Below are positions 36,783 to 57,284 of a stretch of 64,000 nucleotides of DNA, piece by piece. The stretch spans positions 32,001 through 96,000 of the forward strand of contig JAEOUA010000012.1 of assembly GCA_016839555.1 (NCBI GenBank). The letters are read 5' to 3'. The DNA is from Promethearchaeota archaeon. GTDB taxonomy: Archaea > Asgardarchaeota > Lokiarchaeia > Sigyniarchaeales > SOKP01. The notes beneath the pieces are model-generated. The model searched no databases, was not told where the DNA came from, and worked only from the letters and a program-made list of their open reading frames with translations. A program made the translations under genes and the position numbers. The stretch's first letter is position 1, and every line of letters starts with the position of its first letter.

Positions 36783-37823
36783 ATGGAACAACTATTAGAA
36801 AAAATTAATGATTTATTGAGAGAAGCTGGTTTTACCACCTTTACTTTTGAATTTAAATCAAGTAGAGAGAATTATTGCTACGATTTATTAGTTAAAAAAC
36901 CCCATTCCAATCTAGTATTCATAGTAAAAGTATTTGTTAATATTGATAATATTCATGAAAATATAATAACAGGTATTAAAACATTATCAAAATTATTTAA
37001 ATCCAGACCATTATTAATTGGGTTAAGAAATAGATATCAAAAACTTGAAGATAATATGATTTATATACGAGAAGATCTTCCCATTATTTCTTTTAATACC
37101 TTAGAAAATATTCTTAAAAAAAACCTCTTTCCATACATTCTTAACAGAAGAGGCGGTGGTGTAATTTATCTTGATGGTGCCTTAATGAAGAAATTGCGTG
37201 AAGAACATAAAATTTCTAGAAAAGTATTATCAGAAAAGGTAGGAATTACTAAAAGAACTATATGTTCCTACGAAAGCGAAAATATACGCCCCTCGAAAGA
37301 AATTGCAGAAAAAATTGAAAATATCTTGGAATCTAACTTAAATATTTTTAGAAATATTAATATATTCGACTGGCATTTTGAATTTGATATTAAAGAAATG
37401 AGTAAAAAAGAAAATGAAGAATTAAGTGAATTTGAAGAGCATATCCAAAATATAATTGAAGATATAGGAATTACTTCATATTGGTATAAAAAAGAACAAT
37501 TCCCTTTTGAAATGTTAATCTCATCAAAAGATTGGGAAGCGGGAACTGAACAAGAAAACCATTTTTATCCTTTATTTTCTGAAATATCTGAGGTTGAAGA
37601 AAAATTAAAGGAGATAAATCTAAAATATTTAAAGATTTTTACCAAATTCTTCTCAAAAAATGGTTTTATTATTGTAAATAATAATATTAAGATTAATAAG
37701 ATCCTATCAAAAAATCAAATCCCCGTAATTAAGATTAGAAGCCTAGAAAAAATTGATGATGAAGAGGAATTTAAAAAATTATTTTTGAATTTTGAATCGA
37801 ATAAATCAAAAATCTTAAATTAA
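36783..37823 (+). CDS. Archaeal HTH transcriptional regulator (COG1395-like)
   Basis: YDLLVK..IVKV..NID, RRGGG...LKKLRE...GITKRTICSYE XRE-type HTH. Confidence 0.85.
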   Translation: MEQLLEKINDLLREAGFTTFTFEFKSSRENYCYDLLVKKPHSNLVFIVKVFVNIDNIHENIITGIKTLSKLFKSRPLLIGLRNRYQKLEDNMIYIREDLPIISFNTLENILKKNLFPYILNRRGGGVIYLDGALMKKLREEHKISRKVLSEKVGITKRTICSYESENIRPSKEIAEKIENILESNLNIFRNINIFDWHFEFDIKEMSKKENEELSEFEEHIQNIIEDIGITSYWYKKEQFPFEMLISSKDWEAGTEQENHFYPLFSEISEVEEKLKEINLKYLKIFTKFFSKNGFIIVNNNIKINKILSKNQIPVIKIRSLEKIDDEEEFKKLFLNFESNKSKILN

Positions 37824-37912
37824 GAATTAGATCCTACTTATTTGGATGTTTCTAGTAGAGTGAACAAAAAATATAAATATTTAAAAAATAGAAACAATTA
37901 ATAAAGAAAATT

Positions 37913-38630
37913 ATGAGAAACTTTTTAATTTGCGGACTCGACGAGGCAGGGAGATGGAAATCGATTTGCTTTGCACCCTAAAGGCCCCGTTTTAGGTCCA
38001 ATGATTTTATGTGGTGTATCTTTCACCAAAAATAAACTACACCATTTAGAAAAAATGGGAGTGAAAGATTCCAAAAAATTAGCCCCTAAAAAAAGAAAAG
38101 AATTAGCAAAATTAATTAAACAAGAGTGTAATTCATATAAAATTCTACAATTGTCCTCCCAAGAAATAGATGAGAGAGTGAGAAAGAAAATTTCCCTTAA
38201 TAGACTTGAAATTATCAAATTTGTTGAGATTTTAAATGAGCTTCAACCAGATATCATATATATCGATGCTGCTGATACAGATGAAAATAGATTTGGAAGA
38301 TCTATTAAAAATCAATTGAATTATATCCCGAAAAGAATTATTTCAAAACATAAAGCCGATGAACTTTTTCCGATTGTTGGAGCAGCTTCCATTATTGCAA
38401 AATGTCATCGCGATATGATTATAAATGAATTAAACAAATACTATATGAACCAAGGATCTATAAACATTGGCTCGGGTTATACATCTGATGAAAAAACAAT
38501 CAATTTTTTGAGATATTGGATAAGAACTTATAAAAAAGCACCTTCATGTGCCAGAAATACCTGGGCAACAATTCGGAAAATCCTTGAGGAGGAATTATAT
38601 AATAAAAAAATTACACAATTTTTTAAATAG
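37913..38630 (+). CDS. rnhB: Ribonuclease HII, join(37913..37953,37982..38630), 229 aa after intron removal
   Basis: Spliced product MRNFLICGLDEAGRGPVLGPM...KDSKKL...DAAD...KAD...GAASIIAK...GSGY...; PIP-box-like KKITQFF C-terminus. Confidence 0.93.
37954..37981 (+). other. 28-nt BHB-type intron in the rnhB mRNA
   Basis: Central helix AGGG(37948-51)/CCCT(37976-79), bulges AGA and AAA, inner stem TGGAAA/TTTGCA; cutting after the second nt of each bulge restores AGA GGC (Arg-Gly). Unspliced frame hits TAA at 37979. Confidence 0.85.
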
Positions 38631-39321
38631 GTTTTTTTCTCCCAATCAAAACTAAATGATTTTCGGCATACTGATGAATATTGATACTTTCTAATATATC
38701 TAAACCTCCTTTTTCTAAAGTTTTTTGCTCTTCTTTATAGACCTTCTTTGATTTAGACACAGAATCTATAGATTGAGATTTAATAGCTAGAATTAATATC
38801 CCTTTATCTTGTAGATAATATTTACAATTTTTAACTGCAATTTCTGCTTGATTGGGTTGAGCTATATCTTGATATATAAGGTCGATTTCTGTAAATATAT
38901 TCTTAGCATATTCAATTGGATGGCGAGCGTCTCCCAATATTGGAATTACATTTTTTCTTTCTGCTGTATTTTGAATGAGTTGTCTCATGCTTCTTTCAGC
39001 AAATTCAACGGCATAAATAACTCCATTTTCTAAAATATCAGAAAAATGAGATACCGTTGTCCCTGATGCTGCCCCAAGATATAGACAATTTTTCCCCTGT
39101 TTAAGGAAATTAGTTTTGGGCTGATTTATTAAAATAGCAGCAAGCTTACTTTGATATGGATTCCATTCTCGATATTCCTTTCCATTCCTTTTTATTAATT
39201 TTTCTCCATAAACCTGTTTACCAGGGACTAAATTTTTAGTATATAATTTTGGATTTTCAAAAGATCCGGATATAAATACATTATCTATTTTGGGGTGATT
39301 TCGAATATTTAATTTGCTCAT
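38623..39321 (-). CDS. flpA: Fibrillarin-like 2'-O-methyltransferase
   Basis: VYGEK, YREWNPYQSKLAA, LYLGAASGTTVSH, DIAQPNQ. Confidence 0.96.
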   Translation of the reverse strand: MSKLNIRNHPKIDNVFISGSFENPKLYTKNLVPGKQVYGEKLIKRNGKEYREWNPYQSKLAAILINQPKTNFLKQGKNCLYLGAASGTTVSHFSDILENGVIYAVEFAERSMRQLIQNTAERKNVIPILGDARHPIEYAKNIFTEIDLIYQDIAQPNQAEIAVKNCKYYLQDKGILILAIKSQSIDSVSKSKKVYKEEQKTLEKGGLDILESINIHQYAENHLVLIGRKKPI

Positions 39322-39353: not shown

Positions 39354-40511
39354 CTATTTAGGAGGATGTGGATATTTTTCTTTAATTTGATTTATTTTTT
39401 CTTTAATTTCTTCGGCATAGGTATCACCAAAAAAATCACCAGAAAAATAGTCTAATTTTGCGGCAAGTCCTAATTTTCCCGCAATTAATCTTGCGATATT
39501 ACCCCGAATCCAAGGCGGATTTCCTCTAATTTGTTGCCATTGAAAGATTAAACCATGTTTAGGTAATTTATTACCCGCTCTGAGATAACGATATAATGCA
39601 GTCTCCGCACCTAATAATTGTATCCGGGAAGATGGCATAAAAGCTAATCTGCGTAGACTTCCGGCATGAGAAATTAACTTCGCTCCTACTAAGGCTCCTA
39701 CAATTGCTCGAATATTTGGTGCTGTTTTTTGCATTAACTCATCTAAATGCGATTCTAAGGCTTCCCTATAGTTTTCTAATGATAAGATCTGATCAGCAAA
39801 TTTTTTTACCATTTCTAAATCTATATCTGCTCCCATTGATTTTGATGCTAATTTAAGTATTGTTTTTACTTCTTTTTGACTTAAAGAAAATTTTGATTCT
39901 AGGATTTCTTTTGTATAATTTTTTCTGTTTCCTATTTCAGATATAAATTTTGCCAATAAGACATCATCCTCAACAAATTTATCTGTCAACTCTGGGAAAT
40001 GAAGTCCATACCATTCCTTAATTTTATTGGAAAATTTGCTTATAGTTGGTTTGATGAATTCTAAAGTTTCAATGGTTTGAATGATTTGAATATCTTTTTT
40101 CTCGCCTGCTTGCTTAATCTTTTTTCTTATTAATTTTTCATTGATAATTTTATACTTTTTTAATAAATCTTCTTGATCAATATTGATTCCTATGTTTTTT
40201 AATTTCTCTTCTAAATTAAACCGAAAATTTTGAAATTCTAAGGAATAAGGATCAAATTCTGTTTCAAATTGAAGAAGAACGGAAGTTAATGAATACAATT
40301 CTTCATTATCAAATATGAATAAGGAAAAGCCTGAATTCTTTAACTCCGTTAATAAACTCGTATATTCTTCCCCTAACTCTCCTTCTTCTAATTTAGAGTA
40401 AAAATCAATAATTTTTTGTTCTTTTCCTTCAAAATCTCTATAATTTAAAAAATTTCCGGTTGCATCAATAGTATATATGCCTATTAATGTATCAATAATA
40501 AAAGATTTCAT
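39354..40511 (-). CDS. nop5: C/D box sRNP subunit Nop5 (Nop56/58)
   Basis: EWYGLHFPEL, APNI, IQLLGAE, PKHGLIFQ. Confidence 0.95.
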   Translation of the reverse strand: MKSFIIDTLIGIYTIDATGNFLNYRDFEGKEQKIIDFYSKLEEGELGEEYTSLLTELKNSGFSLFIFDNEELYSLTSVLLQFETEFDPYSLEFQNFRFNLEEKLKNIGINIDQEDLLKKYKIINEKLIRKKIKQAGEKKDIQIIQTIETLEFIKPTISKFSNKIKEWYGLHFPELTDKFVEDDVLLAKFISEIGNRKNYTKEILESKFSLSQKEVKTILKLASKSMGADIDLEMVKKFADQILSLENYREALESHLDELMQKTAPNIRAIVGALVGAKLISHAGSLRRLAFMPSSRIQLLGAETALYRYLRAGNKLPKHGLIFQWQQIRGNPPWIRGNIARLIAGKLGLAAKLDYFSGDFFGDTYAEEIKEKINQIKEKYPHPPK

Positions 40512-55808: not shown

Positions 55809-55986
55809 ATCTCTATATAAATAGAGAAGCTTCTCATCCGTATAATAATAGAGATAAATTAGATGTTATATCCATTTAAAATTAAGCATATTATAATAAT
55901 TTTATTGAAAAGGTAAAGGTATATTTAAAAAATATTCTGAAATGAGATAATTCTCATAATACCTGCCAAAAGGTTTATAACTTGAG

Positions 55987-56086
55987 CGCAGGTGGAGGGA
56001 TTTGAACCCTCGAGCGCTCTCGCGCACTGGCTTACTTTGCTTGCGCAGCTCTCAAGGCCAGCGTCTTACCACTAGGCTACACCTGC
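55987..56086 (-). tRNA. tRNA-Ser(TGA) with 18-nt canonical 37/38 intron (56033..56050)
   Basis: GCAGGTG/CACCTGC acceptor, CTGGC/GCCAG stem, long variable arm, G discriminator. Confidence 0.9.
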
Positions 56087-57039: not shown

Positions 57040-57148
57040 GCTCAAGTCGCTTAGCCTGGTAGAACGAGTAATTAATAGCCTGCCAAAAGCGCTGGTCTGC
57101 TAAACCAGTACGTTGATGCGTGCGTGGGTTCAAATCCCACCTTGAGCG
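57040..57148 (+). tRNA. tRNA-Ser(GCT) with 25-nt D-arm intron (57063..57087)
   Basis: GCTCAAG/CTTGAGC acceptor; CTGGT-CTGCTAA-ACCAG; helix TGGT/GCCA with bulges AGA and AAA restores GCTTAGCCTGGTAGAGC. Confidence 0.9.
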
Positions 57149-57175
57149 CTTATATCTTGTATAAGAAATAAAAAT

Positions 57176-57284
57176 GAGCCCGTAGTCTAGCTGGTTATGA
57201 CGTCGCGTTTATCTTTGAACATATTCGTTCAAAATAGCGAATACACCGCGAAGATCGGGAGTTCGAATCTCTCCGGGCTCACCA
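57176..57284 (+). tRNA. tRNA-Val(TAC) with 32-nt anticodon-loop intron (about 57210..57241), encoded CCA
   Basis: GAGCCCG/CGGGCTC-ACCA; Val-type D arm; removing 32 nt gives TCGCG-TTTACAC-CGCGA; exact junction ambiguous by 1-2 nt. Confidence 0.82.

What the first reader, a model, noticed from the sequence alone, without database searches (positions are those of the whole stretch)
37913..38630. Protein-coding gene rnhB interrupted by a tRNA-type bulge-helix-bulge intron inside its catalytic motif
Seen: ATG at 37913 reads MRNFLICGLDEAGR, then 28 extra nt with an in-frame TAA, then GPVLGPM resumes in another frame. The flanks form a BHB: helix AGGG/CCCT, 3-nt bulges AGA (37952-54) and AAA (37980-82), inner stem TGGAAA/TTTGCA (one mismatch), imperfect outer stem GACGAGGC/GCCCCGTT. 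Established: the archaeal splicing endonuclease EndA cuts after the second bulge nucleotide. Doing so removes exactly 37954..37981 and rebuilds the invariant DEAGRGP motif. The rest of the gene is intact down to a PIP-like C-terminus. The archaeal mRNA intron I know well is crenarchaeal cbf5. Inference: EndA/RtcB-dependent mRNA splicing gates RNase HII expression in this Asgard archaeon, mechanistically like HAC1/XBP1 non-spliceosomal splicing. Automated annotation would give a truncated ORF lacking the catalytic D/E.
Basis: partly seen in the sequence, partly recalled or inferred. Interest (0 to 1): 0.95.

Follow-up and report, generated by a model that had tools for sequence, protein, structure and literature searches.

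The report
tRNA-type intron splitting Asgard RNase HII
The only RNase HII gene of this Asgard (Promethearchaeia) archaeon is broken inside its catalytic motif by a 28-base insert shaped like a tRNA intron; 80 related species carry one at the same spot, so the mRNA almost certainly must be cut and rejoined before the enzyme can be made, a kind of splicing published so far for only one archaeal coding sequence (cbf5).

Summary
ATG 37913 encodes MRNFLICGLDEAGR. A 28-nt insert (37954-37981) with an in-frame TAA follows, then GPVLGPM in another frame. The flanks form a bulge-helix-bulge (BHB).

Cutting after the second nucleotide of each bulge rebuilds DEAGRGP and gives a 229-aa RNase HII. This is the only rnhB in the genome.

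It is not an artefact or a pseudogene:
- Contigs from three samples hold the insert.
- 81 of 129 genomes of the same family carry a 28-31-nt insert at the identical site. Every one has a stop or a frameshift.
- 20 of 20 genomes from other families lack it.
- The BHB covaries: 92% of cells pair, against 29-48% in slid controls.
- The cut sites are fixed by coding. The third 3'-bulge base is always A or G, and AGT bulges become AGA.
- Synonymous exon sites keep the outer helix (GAG 80/81 against 27/43).
- dN/dS is 0.12-0.20.

The genome encodes EndA alpha and beta subunits and RtcB. Its tRNA introns use the same AGA/AAA bulges, and two other genes show like inserts.

No RNA data were available, so splicing is inferred. 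A regulatory "gate" is untested. The scan found this same rnhB intron before in another genome (e1-5426028). No paper in the searched library reports it.

The parts
37913..37953 (+). rnhB exon 1: ATG to the first two bases (AG) of the Arg codon. Encodes MRNFLICGLDEAG(R), including catalytic Asp10 (37940-42) and Glu11 (37943-45).
   Evidence: The junction peptide aligns without gaps to Pfam RNase_HII positions 1-54 and to solved archaeal RNase HII chains 1EKE and 1IO2.
37954..37981 (+). 28-nt BHB intron (A TGGAAATCGATTTGCTTTGCA CCCT AA). Contains the in-frame TAA at 37979-81 and shifts the frame by +1.
   Evidence: Inserts at the same site in 81 of 129 family genomes. Unique in the genome at up to 5 mismatches.
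37982..38630 (+). rnhB exon 2: the third base of the Arg codon (A), then GPVLGPM... to TAG 38628-30. Holds catalytic Asp in IDAADT (38262-79) and KHKADE (38346-63).
   Evidence: (RNase_HII 3e-42, profile 9-198).
37940..37947 (+). Outer (exon-exon) helix, 5' strand: GACGAGGC.
   Evidence: Pairs with 37984-91. 96% of cells pair in 77 sequences. Synonymous sites are constrained: GAG in 80/81 intron-bearing genes against 27/43 intronless.
37948..37951 (+). Central 4-bp helix, 5' strand: AGGG (exon 1, third base of the Ala codon plus the Gly codon).
   Evidence: Pairs with CCCT 37976-79. Covaries across the family: position 4 is G-C 13, C-G 13, U-G 40, U-A 10, with 1 unpaired.
37952..37954 (+). 5' bulge AGA. 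Predicted cut after G37953.
   Evidence: The bulge is AGT in three relatives, which is Ser if read through and Arg after splicing.
37955..37975 (+). Intron hairpin: TGGAAA / TTTGCA stem with a G.G mismatch, and loop 37961-69.
   Evidence: The mismatch is a T-A pair in the close relative L145. 8 of 9 stem pairs show double changes across the family.
37976..37979 (+). Central helix, 3' strand: CCCT (intron).
37980..37982 (+). 3' bulge AAA. Predicted cut after A37981.
   Evidence: In 81 sequences the third base is always A or G (AG+R = Arg), while the second base varies A/C/T/G.
37984..37991 (+). Outer helix, 3' strand: GCCCCGTT (exon 2). G37983 is unpaired or an alternative partner of C37947.
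38601..38624 (+). PIP-like C-terminal motif NKKITQFF.
   Evidence: Conserved as [NQ]xKITxYF in 30 aligned orthologues.

Best explanation
rnhB is a split gene. Its pre-mRNA carries a 28-nt archaeal bulge-helix-bulge intron 41 nt after the start codon.

The last four exon-1 bases before the bulge (AGGG) pair with the intron's 3' end (CCCT). This helix is flanked by two 3-nt bulges, with an exon-exon helix outside and an intron hairpin inside.

The host's heterotetrameric splicing endonuclease (EndA alpha plus beta) is inferred to cut after the second base of each bulge. RtcB is inferred to join the exons and probably circularise the intron. That creates the Arg codon AG|A and the uninterrupted catalytic motif GLDEAGRGPVLGP of a 229-aa RNase HII.

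Without splicing, translation stops after 22 codons. A restart product would lack the catalytic Asp-Glu.

The intron arose once in the ancestor of this Promethearchaeia family, or within the family. It has since been lost precisely many times.

What is shown: the anatomy, conservation, covariation, coding constraints and presence of the machinery.
What is inferred: the cleavage and ligation themselves, and whether splicing is constitutive.
For: 1. Single copy: one RNase_HII locus in the 3.74-Mb genome.
2. Same-site inserts in 81 of 129 family genomes: 77 are 30 nt, the others 28, 29 or 31 nt. All carry an in-frame stop or a frameshift. 20 of 20 genomes of other families in the class are uninterrupted.
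3. BHB covariation on 77 distinct sequences: 92% of cells pair against 29-48% when partners are slid. 11 pairs have changes on both sides. 0 of 500 shuffles reach the observed values.
4. The cut sites are fixed by coding. The third 3'-bulge base is always a purine, and AGT 5' bulges become AGA only under the EndA rule.
5. Spliced proteins align without gaps to intronless orthologues, Pfam and PDB RNase HII.
6. Exon synonymous sites are constrained for the outer helix: GAG 80/81 against 27/43, and 6.73 against 5.42 of 7 pairs.
7. Purifying selection: dN/dS 0.12-0.20 in intron-bearing pairs. Exon 2 is intact in 80 of the 81 intron-bearing genomes.
8. Machinery: two EndA paralogues, one with the Tyr/His/Lys triad and one without the His, plus RtcB.
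9. Seventeen of 28 detected tRNA genes have introns. Several have BHBs with the same AGA/AAA bulges.
10. AMP phosphorylase and an HDAC-family gene in the same genome each have one Pfam domain split by a 30-31-nt BHB insert.
11. The insert is present in independent assemblies.
Against: - No transcript data. No RNA run holds the locus.
- The BHB is not the predicted MFE structure of the isolated sequence, though it is within 0.6 kcal/mol of it.
- The outer helix is imperfect: an A.C mismatch and one extra G next to the 3' bulge.
- In many relatives the central helix is G.U-rich. 8 and 11 of 77 sequences have a mismatch at its first and second pair.
- Related species are not independent, so the counts and the Fisher test overstate the support.
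Confidence: 0.88

Rival explanations
1. Recoding at the ribosome. The insert stays in the mRNA and is skipped by programmed translational bypassing (as in T4 gene 60) or a frameshift, helped by the hairpin.
For: A stable hairpin and a nearby stop codon are present, as in known bypass sites.
Against: - There are no matched take-off and landing codons that would rebuild DEAGRGP. AGA/AGT against AAA do not match, and GGN-to-GGN would delete Arg-Gly.
- Most inserts are 30 nt and in frame with TAA, TAG or TGA, so a frameshift cannot help.
- Bypass does not predict a 4-bp helix between the exon and the intron's 3' end with 3-nt bulges, nor the purine rule at the third 3'-bulge base.
Confidence: 0.04
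2. The insert is not removed. The cell makes an N-terminally truncated, catalytically dead RNase HII-like protein from an internal start (TTG 37971 or ATG at Met21). The conserved hairpin is a translational or stability element.
For: An ORF runs 37971-38630, and pipelines annotate 209-213-aa products.
Against: - Exon 1 stays intact and conserved (MxxxLICG[LI]DEAG) with an ATG in all intron-bearing genes. Its synonymous sites are constrained.
- The truncated product lacks the Asp-Glu of the DEDD site.
- No other rnhB could supply the activity.
- Intronless sister species keep the full enzyme.
Confidence: 0.04
3. Decaying pseudogene, or a recent insertion of a small mobile element that knocked out rnhB.
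For: The insert breaks the frame. Its distribution is patchy among relatives.
Against: - The same site is occupied in 81 species of 8 genera.
- There is no other lesion in exon 2 in 80 of the 81 intron-bearing genomes.
- dN/dS is 0.12-0.20.
- Compensatory changes keep the structure.
- The intron sequence has no other copy in the genome.
Confidence: 0.02
4. Assembly or sequencing artefact.
For: None beyond the prior that frameshifts in MAGs are often errors.
Against: Contigs of three samples cover the insert with no differences. Relatives from other studies and samples carry it.
Confidence: 0.01

Closest known systems
cbf5 pre-mRNA intron of Crenarchaeota (Desulfurococcales, Sulfolobales; Watanabe 2002, Yoshinari 2006, Yokobori 2009 = PMC2738675)
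   Same: - A short BHB-type intron inside a protein-coding sequence.
- The host has a hetero-oligomeric EndA with broad specificity.
- The cleavage motif is often relaxed.
- Distribution among relatives is patchy, implying gain and loss.
   Different: - The gene differs: RNase HII, not a pseudouridine synthase.
- The phylum differs: Asgard/Promethearchaeota.
- The position differs: inside the catalytic DEAGRGP motif, 41 nt from the start codon.
- It is not a homologous intron.
- Splicing is demonstrated for cbf5. Here it is inferred.
Archaeal tRNA BHB introns (substrates of EndA, ligated by RtcB)
   Same: - Identical geometry: outer helix, 4-bp helix, two 3-nt bulges, inner hairpin, cuts after the second bulge base.
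- Similar size, about 30 nt.
- tRNA-Cys and tRNA-Ser introns of this same genome use the same AGA/AAA-type bulges.
   Different: The context is an mRNA with no tRNA body. The exon strands are codons, so the helix is maintained through synonymous sites.
BHB intron in the 5' UTR of Haloferax volcanii HVO_1309 (PMC7714728)
   Same: A non-tRNA, non-rRNA BHB in an mRNA, processed by EndA. That one is shown in vivo and in vitro.
   Different: That intron (46 nt) lies in the untranslated leader and does not interrupt a reading frame. That paper states that cbf5 was the only other mRNA case reported.
HAC1/XBP1 unconventional cytoplasmic splicing
   Same: A spliceosome-independent protein endonuclease followed by RNA ligase (RtcB for XBP1). 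Removal of a short intron changes the reading frame.
   Different: - The endonuclease is IRE1, not EndA/TSEN.
- The RNA motif is two stem-loops with 7-nt loops, not a BHB.
- That splicing is stress-regulated. No regulation is shown here.

Membership tests
Archaeal BHB intron (EndA substrate) | 4-bp central helix flanked by two 3-nt bulges on opposite strands, with the 5' strand in the upstream exon and the 3' strand at the intron's end | tested here: met
   Own sequence: AGGG/CCCT with AGA and AAA. 93.5% of cells pair in 77 sequences, with compensatory changes at positions 1 and 4.
Archaeal BHB intron (EndA substrate) | Flanking helices outside (exon-exon) and inside (intron hairpin) | tested here: met
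   The outer helix has 7 pairs plus an A.C mismatch and one extra G by the 3' bulge, with 96% of cells paired. The inner stem has 88% of cells paired and 8 of 9 pairs with double changes. It is slightly relaxed, within what (alpha-beta)2 EndA accepts according to PMC5829648.
Archaeal BHB intron (EndA substrate) | Cutting after the second base of each bulge yields a functional product | tested here: met
   The frame and DEAGRGP are restored. The purine rule holds at the third 3'-bulge base, and AGT becomes AGA.
Archaeal BHB intron (EndA substrate) | The host encodes the splicing endonuclease and RtcB ligase | tested here: met
   Two PF01974 paralogues, read as alpha and beta, and one RtcB.
Archaeal BHB intron (EndA substrate) | Spliced RNA, a circular intron, or in vitro cleavage is observed | not testable with these tools
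Needs RT-PCR, RNA-seq or an enzyme assay.
cbf5-type archaeal pre-mRNA intron | The intron lies within the coding sequence and blocks translation unless removed | tested here: met
   In-frame TAA and a +1 shift. All 81 relatives have a stop or a shift.
cbf5-type archaeal pre-mRNA intron | The host gene is cbf5 (homologous intron) | tested here: not met
   The gene is RNase HII. The intron works like the cbf5 intron but is not a member of that intron lineage.
RNase HII (Pfam PF01351) | Full domain with the DEDD catalytic residues | tested here: met
   Exon 2 covers profile positions 9-198. The junction peptide covers 1-54 without a gap. D10, E11, the Asp in IDAADT and the Asp in KHKADE are all present.
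IRE1-type (HAC1/XBP1) splicing | Cut sites lie in the 7-nt loops of two adjacent stem-loops | tested here: not met
   The predicted cut sites lie in 3-nt bulges of a BHB. The presence of IRE1 was not searched.
Programmed translational bypass (T4 gene 60 type) | Matched take-off and landing codons that flank the gap and give the conserved protein | tested here: not met
   No codon pair gives DEAGRGP. AGA/AGT against AAA do not match, and GGN-to-GGN would delete Arg-Gly.

The most novel reading that the evidence does not exclude
rnhB is one visible member of a genome-wide set of about 30-nt EndA-spliced mini-introns in protein-coding genes of this Promethearchaeia family.

Candidates in this genome include AMP phosphorylase, an HDAC-family gene, porB and top6B. 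First-stage readers noted many more.

The rnhB intron itself shows repeated loss or gain among relatives, and selection on exon codons keeps its splice structure.

[quoted passage not shown] Splicing could also act as a control point for genome-maintenance enzymes.
Probability: 0.55. Interest if true: 0.9.

Novelty: new member of a known kind. Interest (0 to 1): 0.77.

Why it matters
Endonuclease-mediated splicing of a protein-coding sequence has been published in archaea for only one coding sequence, crenarchaeal cbf5. One further case lies in a 5' UTR in Haloferax.

Here a second, unrelated and essential-type enzyme gene needs such splicing in at least 81 species of Asgard archaea, the lineage closest to eukaryotes.

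What the finding provides:
- An unusually well-constrained test case. The cut sites are fixed by an invariant catalytic motif, the helices covary, and exon codon choice is shaped by RNA structure.
- Evidence that the intron is lost precisely and repeatedly.
- A correction to annotation. Public databases list about half of these RNase HII genes as 209-213-aa truncated proteins that lack the active-site Asp-Glu.
- A hint, together with like inserts in other genes of the same genome, that gene callers systematically miss split genes in Asgard MAGs.

Tried and rejected
- RNA evidence. No RNA holder was listed for the locus.
- Spliced-junction scans. Two exact-pattern scans of the JGI metagenome contigs found nothing. 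One used the junction of the largest genus, the other this genome's own type.
- Database protein pairs. Among the 120 best database homologues, no full-length protein is more than 88% identical to a truncated one. So no RNA-derived spliced copy could be recognised.
- Plain MFE folding does not return the BHB.
- Genome-wide structural scan for BHBs, with an ORF-fusion filter and a mirrored-geometry control. It showed no enrichment. The control was flawed: a mirrored BHB is a proper BHB on the other strand. In a 29.6% G+C genome, gene boundaries swamp the signal. The scan therefore gives no count of introns.
- A candidate on contig C1 joins an FAD-oxidase/Fe-S ORF to a LarA ORF. The two halves are different domains, so it may be a gene boundary. 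It was not accepted.
- porB exons gave no informative Pfam hit.
- Rfam has nothing at the site.
- The intron has no second copy in the genome at up to 5 mismatches, so no sign of a repeated mobile element.
- Default ARAGORN found no tRNA in the window. With the intron option it finds three.
- open_frame_aa from the genome search cannot classify intron presence. This genome's own interrupted gene reads 233 aa. All junctions were therefore read directly.

Full report
**Observation**

The window was read at 37800-38760.
- ATG 37913 opens MRNFLICGLDEAGR. The frame then continues WKSICFAP and stops at TAA 37979-81.
- From 37983, a second frame reads GPVLGPMILCGV... for 215 residues to TAG 38628-30.
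- This second frame matches Pfam RNase_HII at 3e-42 over profile positions 9-198 of 199. Only the first eight positions, which hold the catalytic Asp-Glu, are missing from it.
- Removing 37954-37981 gives a 690-nt CDS, with DEAGRGP at residues 10-16.

A 60-residue peptide across the proposed junction matches profile positions 1-54 without a gap. It also aligns without gaps to solved archaeal RNase HII chains. For 1IO2, query residue 6 aligns with chain residue 3, so D10 and E11 correspond to the chain's Asp7 and Glu8.

There is one refinement. The outer helix pairs 37940-47 with 37984-91, contains an A.C mismatch, and leaves G37983 as an extra base beside the 3' bulge.

**Is it real DNA, and is it more than chance?**

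- Contigs assembled from three samples of one study cover the insert with no differences.
- The three nearest relatives in the protein collection are 85% identical and were recovered from three other samples. They carry a 28-nt insert of the same type. In one, the G.G mismatch of the intron stem is replaced by a T-A pair.
- Shuffling the 28-mer gives the central helix plus the inner stem in the required register in 0.08% of trials.
- The plain MFE fold is a different structure and is unremarkable, with z -0.47. The BHB fold is within 0.6 kcal/mol of it.

**Comparative evidence**

The genome is 3.74 Mb and 92% complete, and has a single RNase_HII locus.

I read the junction in 129 genomes of the same family.
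- 81 carry an insert exactly between the AG of the Arg codon and the following GGN. Of these, 77 are 30 nt, two are 29 nt, one is 31 nt, and this genome's is 28 nt.
- The 30-nt inserts are in frame, but every one holds a stop codon. The other four shift the frame.
- All 20 genomes read from five other families of the class are uninterrupted.
- Exon 2 is open in all but one of the intron-bearing genomes.
- dN/dS is 0.12-0.20 for intron-bearing pairs, like intronless pairs. dS is near saturation, so these values are rough.
- After conceptual splicing, the proteins align without gaps to intronless orthologues through GxDEAGRGPVLGP. They keep the other two catalytic Asp residues and a conserved C-terminal [NQ]xKITxYF motif.

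**Structure**

I aligned 77 distinct junctions (A1) and tested the BHB written as outer helix, 4-bp helix, 3-nt bulge, 9-bp hairpin, 4-bp helix, bulge, outer helix.
- 92% of cells pair, against 29-48% when the 3' partners are slid by 1-3 columns.
- 11 of 20 pairs have changes on both sides.
- None of 500 shuffles reaches any observed measure.
- The fourth pair of the central helix involves the third base of the Gly codon. It is G-C 13, C-G 13, U-G 40 and U-A 10, with one exception.

**Cut sites**

The EndA rule is to cut after the second base of each bulge. It makes two predictions that other removal schemes do not.
- The third base of the 3' bulge becomes the third base of the Arg codon. It is A or G in all 81 sequences, while the second base is A, C, T or G.
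- The third base of the 5' bulge is intronic and free to vary. It is T in three genomes, where read-through would give Ser at the invariant Arg, and G in one.

**Exons are shaped by the RNA structure**

| Site | Intron-bearing | Intronless (same family) |
|---|---|---|
| Glu codon GAG | 80 of 81 | 27 of 43 |
| First Gly codon of exon 2 is GGC | 55 of 81 | 5 of 43 |
| Next codon ends in A | 1 of 81 | 15 of 43 |
| Outer-helix pairs formed, of 7 | 6.73 | 5.42 |

Related genomes are not independent, so these contrasts are indicative only. The pattern also holds within sister pairs, for example L002 against L003 and L018 against L021.

**History**

A gene tree of 30 orthologues needs at least nine changes of intron state. 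Four well-supported sister pairs differ in state. The site is identical in all carriers, the C-G pair closing the hairpin loop and the base before it are nearly invariant, and other families lack the intron. I therefore read this as one gain followed by repeated precise losses. Repeated gain at a favoured site is not excluded.

**Machinery and context in this genome**

- Two EndA paralogues are present. One carries the Tyr...His...Lys pattern and the other lacks the His. This fits the (alpha-beta)2 enzyme reported for Asgard archaea (PMC5829648).
- RtcB is present.
- ARAGORN with introns allowed finds 28 tRNA genes, 17 of them with introns of 8-43 nt by its calls. Several form canonical BHBs with AGA or GGA 5' bulges and AAA 3' bulges, like rnhB.
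- Following first-stage notes on the same genome, I checked other genes.
  - An AMP phosphorylase gene has its Glycos_transf_3 domain split by a 31-nt BHB insert. Exon 2 starts at profile position 11.
  - An HDAC-family gene has its Hist_deacetyl domain split by a 30-nt insert. Exon 1 covers positions 4-154 and exon 2 covers 193-296.
  - A third candidate may be a gene boundary, and porB was uninformative.
- Relatives are named Promethearchaeota, Promethearchaeia or Lokiarchaeota in public records.

**Interpretation**

The best explanation is a tRNA-type intron in the rnhB pre-mRNA, removed by EndA and RtcB and required to make active RNase HII (confidence 0.88).

The rivals fit poorly.
- Translational bypass lacks matching codons and does not predict the BHB geometry.
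- A truncated product would lack the active site, and would not explain why exon 1 is conserved.
- A pseudogene is contradicted by the purifying selection and the covariation.
- An artefact is contradicted by the independent assemblies.

What is missing is RNA. No RNA run was available, and two scans for spliced junctions in metagenome contigs found nothing.

**Novelty**

Full-text searches found no report of a BHB intron in rnhB or in any Asgard mRNA.
- A 2020 paper states that cbf5 was the only mRNA BHB intron reported before its own 5' UTR case (PMC7714728).
- A 2025 paper still cites only the cbf5 work.
- The library is incomplete, so this shows only that no report was found.

The scan itself met the same rnhB intron before in another genome (e1-5426028). 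It also records an RNA-derived contig that lacks a BHB intron in a Jordarchaeum gene (e1-5425387). I did not check the latter. I class the finding as a new member of a known kind.

Noticed in passing
window about 55986-56086 (-), 57040-57149 (+), 57176-57284 (+): Three intron-containing tRNA genes (Thr-tgt, Gln-ctg, Val-tac) lie in the window. ARAGORN finds them only with the intron option. The default run reports none. Across the genome only 28 tRNA genes are detected, 17 with introns, so many multi-intron tRNAs are probably missed.
   Followed up: partly
G000:C12:205678-205708 (L134:779-809), outside the window: A 31-nt BHB insert (TAGT aca ... GCTA aaa, with a perfect 9-bp stem) splits the DKHS|TGGVPGNK motif of an AMP/thymidine phosphorylase-family gene. 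The Pfam Glycos_transf_3 match resumes at profile position 11 in exon 2.
   Followed up: partly
G000:C10:447264-447293, minus strand (L136): A 30-nt BHB insert (CAGG gga ... CTTG aaa, with a 9-bp stem) splits the DLHTG|DGN motif of a histone-deacetylase-family gene. Exon 1 covers Hist_deacetyl positions 4-154 and exon 2 covers 193-296.
   Followed up: partly
G000:C1:235422-235450, minus strand (L137): A 29-nt BHB-like element lies between a 575-codon FAD-oxidase/4Fe-4S ORF and a 428-codon LarA (lactate racemase) ORF. Removing it fuses them in frame, and no canonical start codon is obvious at the LarA N-terminus. It is either a gene boundary or a spliced fusion. Unresolved.
   Followed up: partly
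alignment A1, columns 31-37 (own sequence 37961-37963, TCG): The C-G pair that closes the intron hairpin loop and the preceding T are nearly invariant across 77 otherwise variable introns (TTCGAA-like core). The reason is unknown.
   Followed up: no
public protein records (P0003, and the 212-213-aa entries): 62 of the 120 best database homologues lack the DEAG motif. They are truncated or mis-started annotations of intron-bearing rnhB genes. P0004 is a read-through ORF that starts inside exon 1 in the wrong frame.
   Followed up: yes
window 37982-38019, run X3 (record 19): A contig from a co-occurring relative matches from exactly 37982 onward. Upstream it reads ...GATGAGGCAGGAAG, which is an intronless rnhB joined at the predicted splice point. 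It has 5 differences in 38 nt, so it comes from another organism and is not a spliced copy.
   Followed up: partly
window 38623-38630: rnhB and the convergent fibrillarin gene (38623-39321, minus strand, followed by nop56/58 at 39354-40511) overlap by 8 nt at their 3' ends. The order HTH/PDDEXK gene, rnhB, fibrillarin is kept in the 85% relatives.
   Followed up: no
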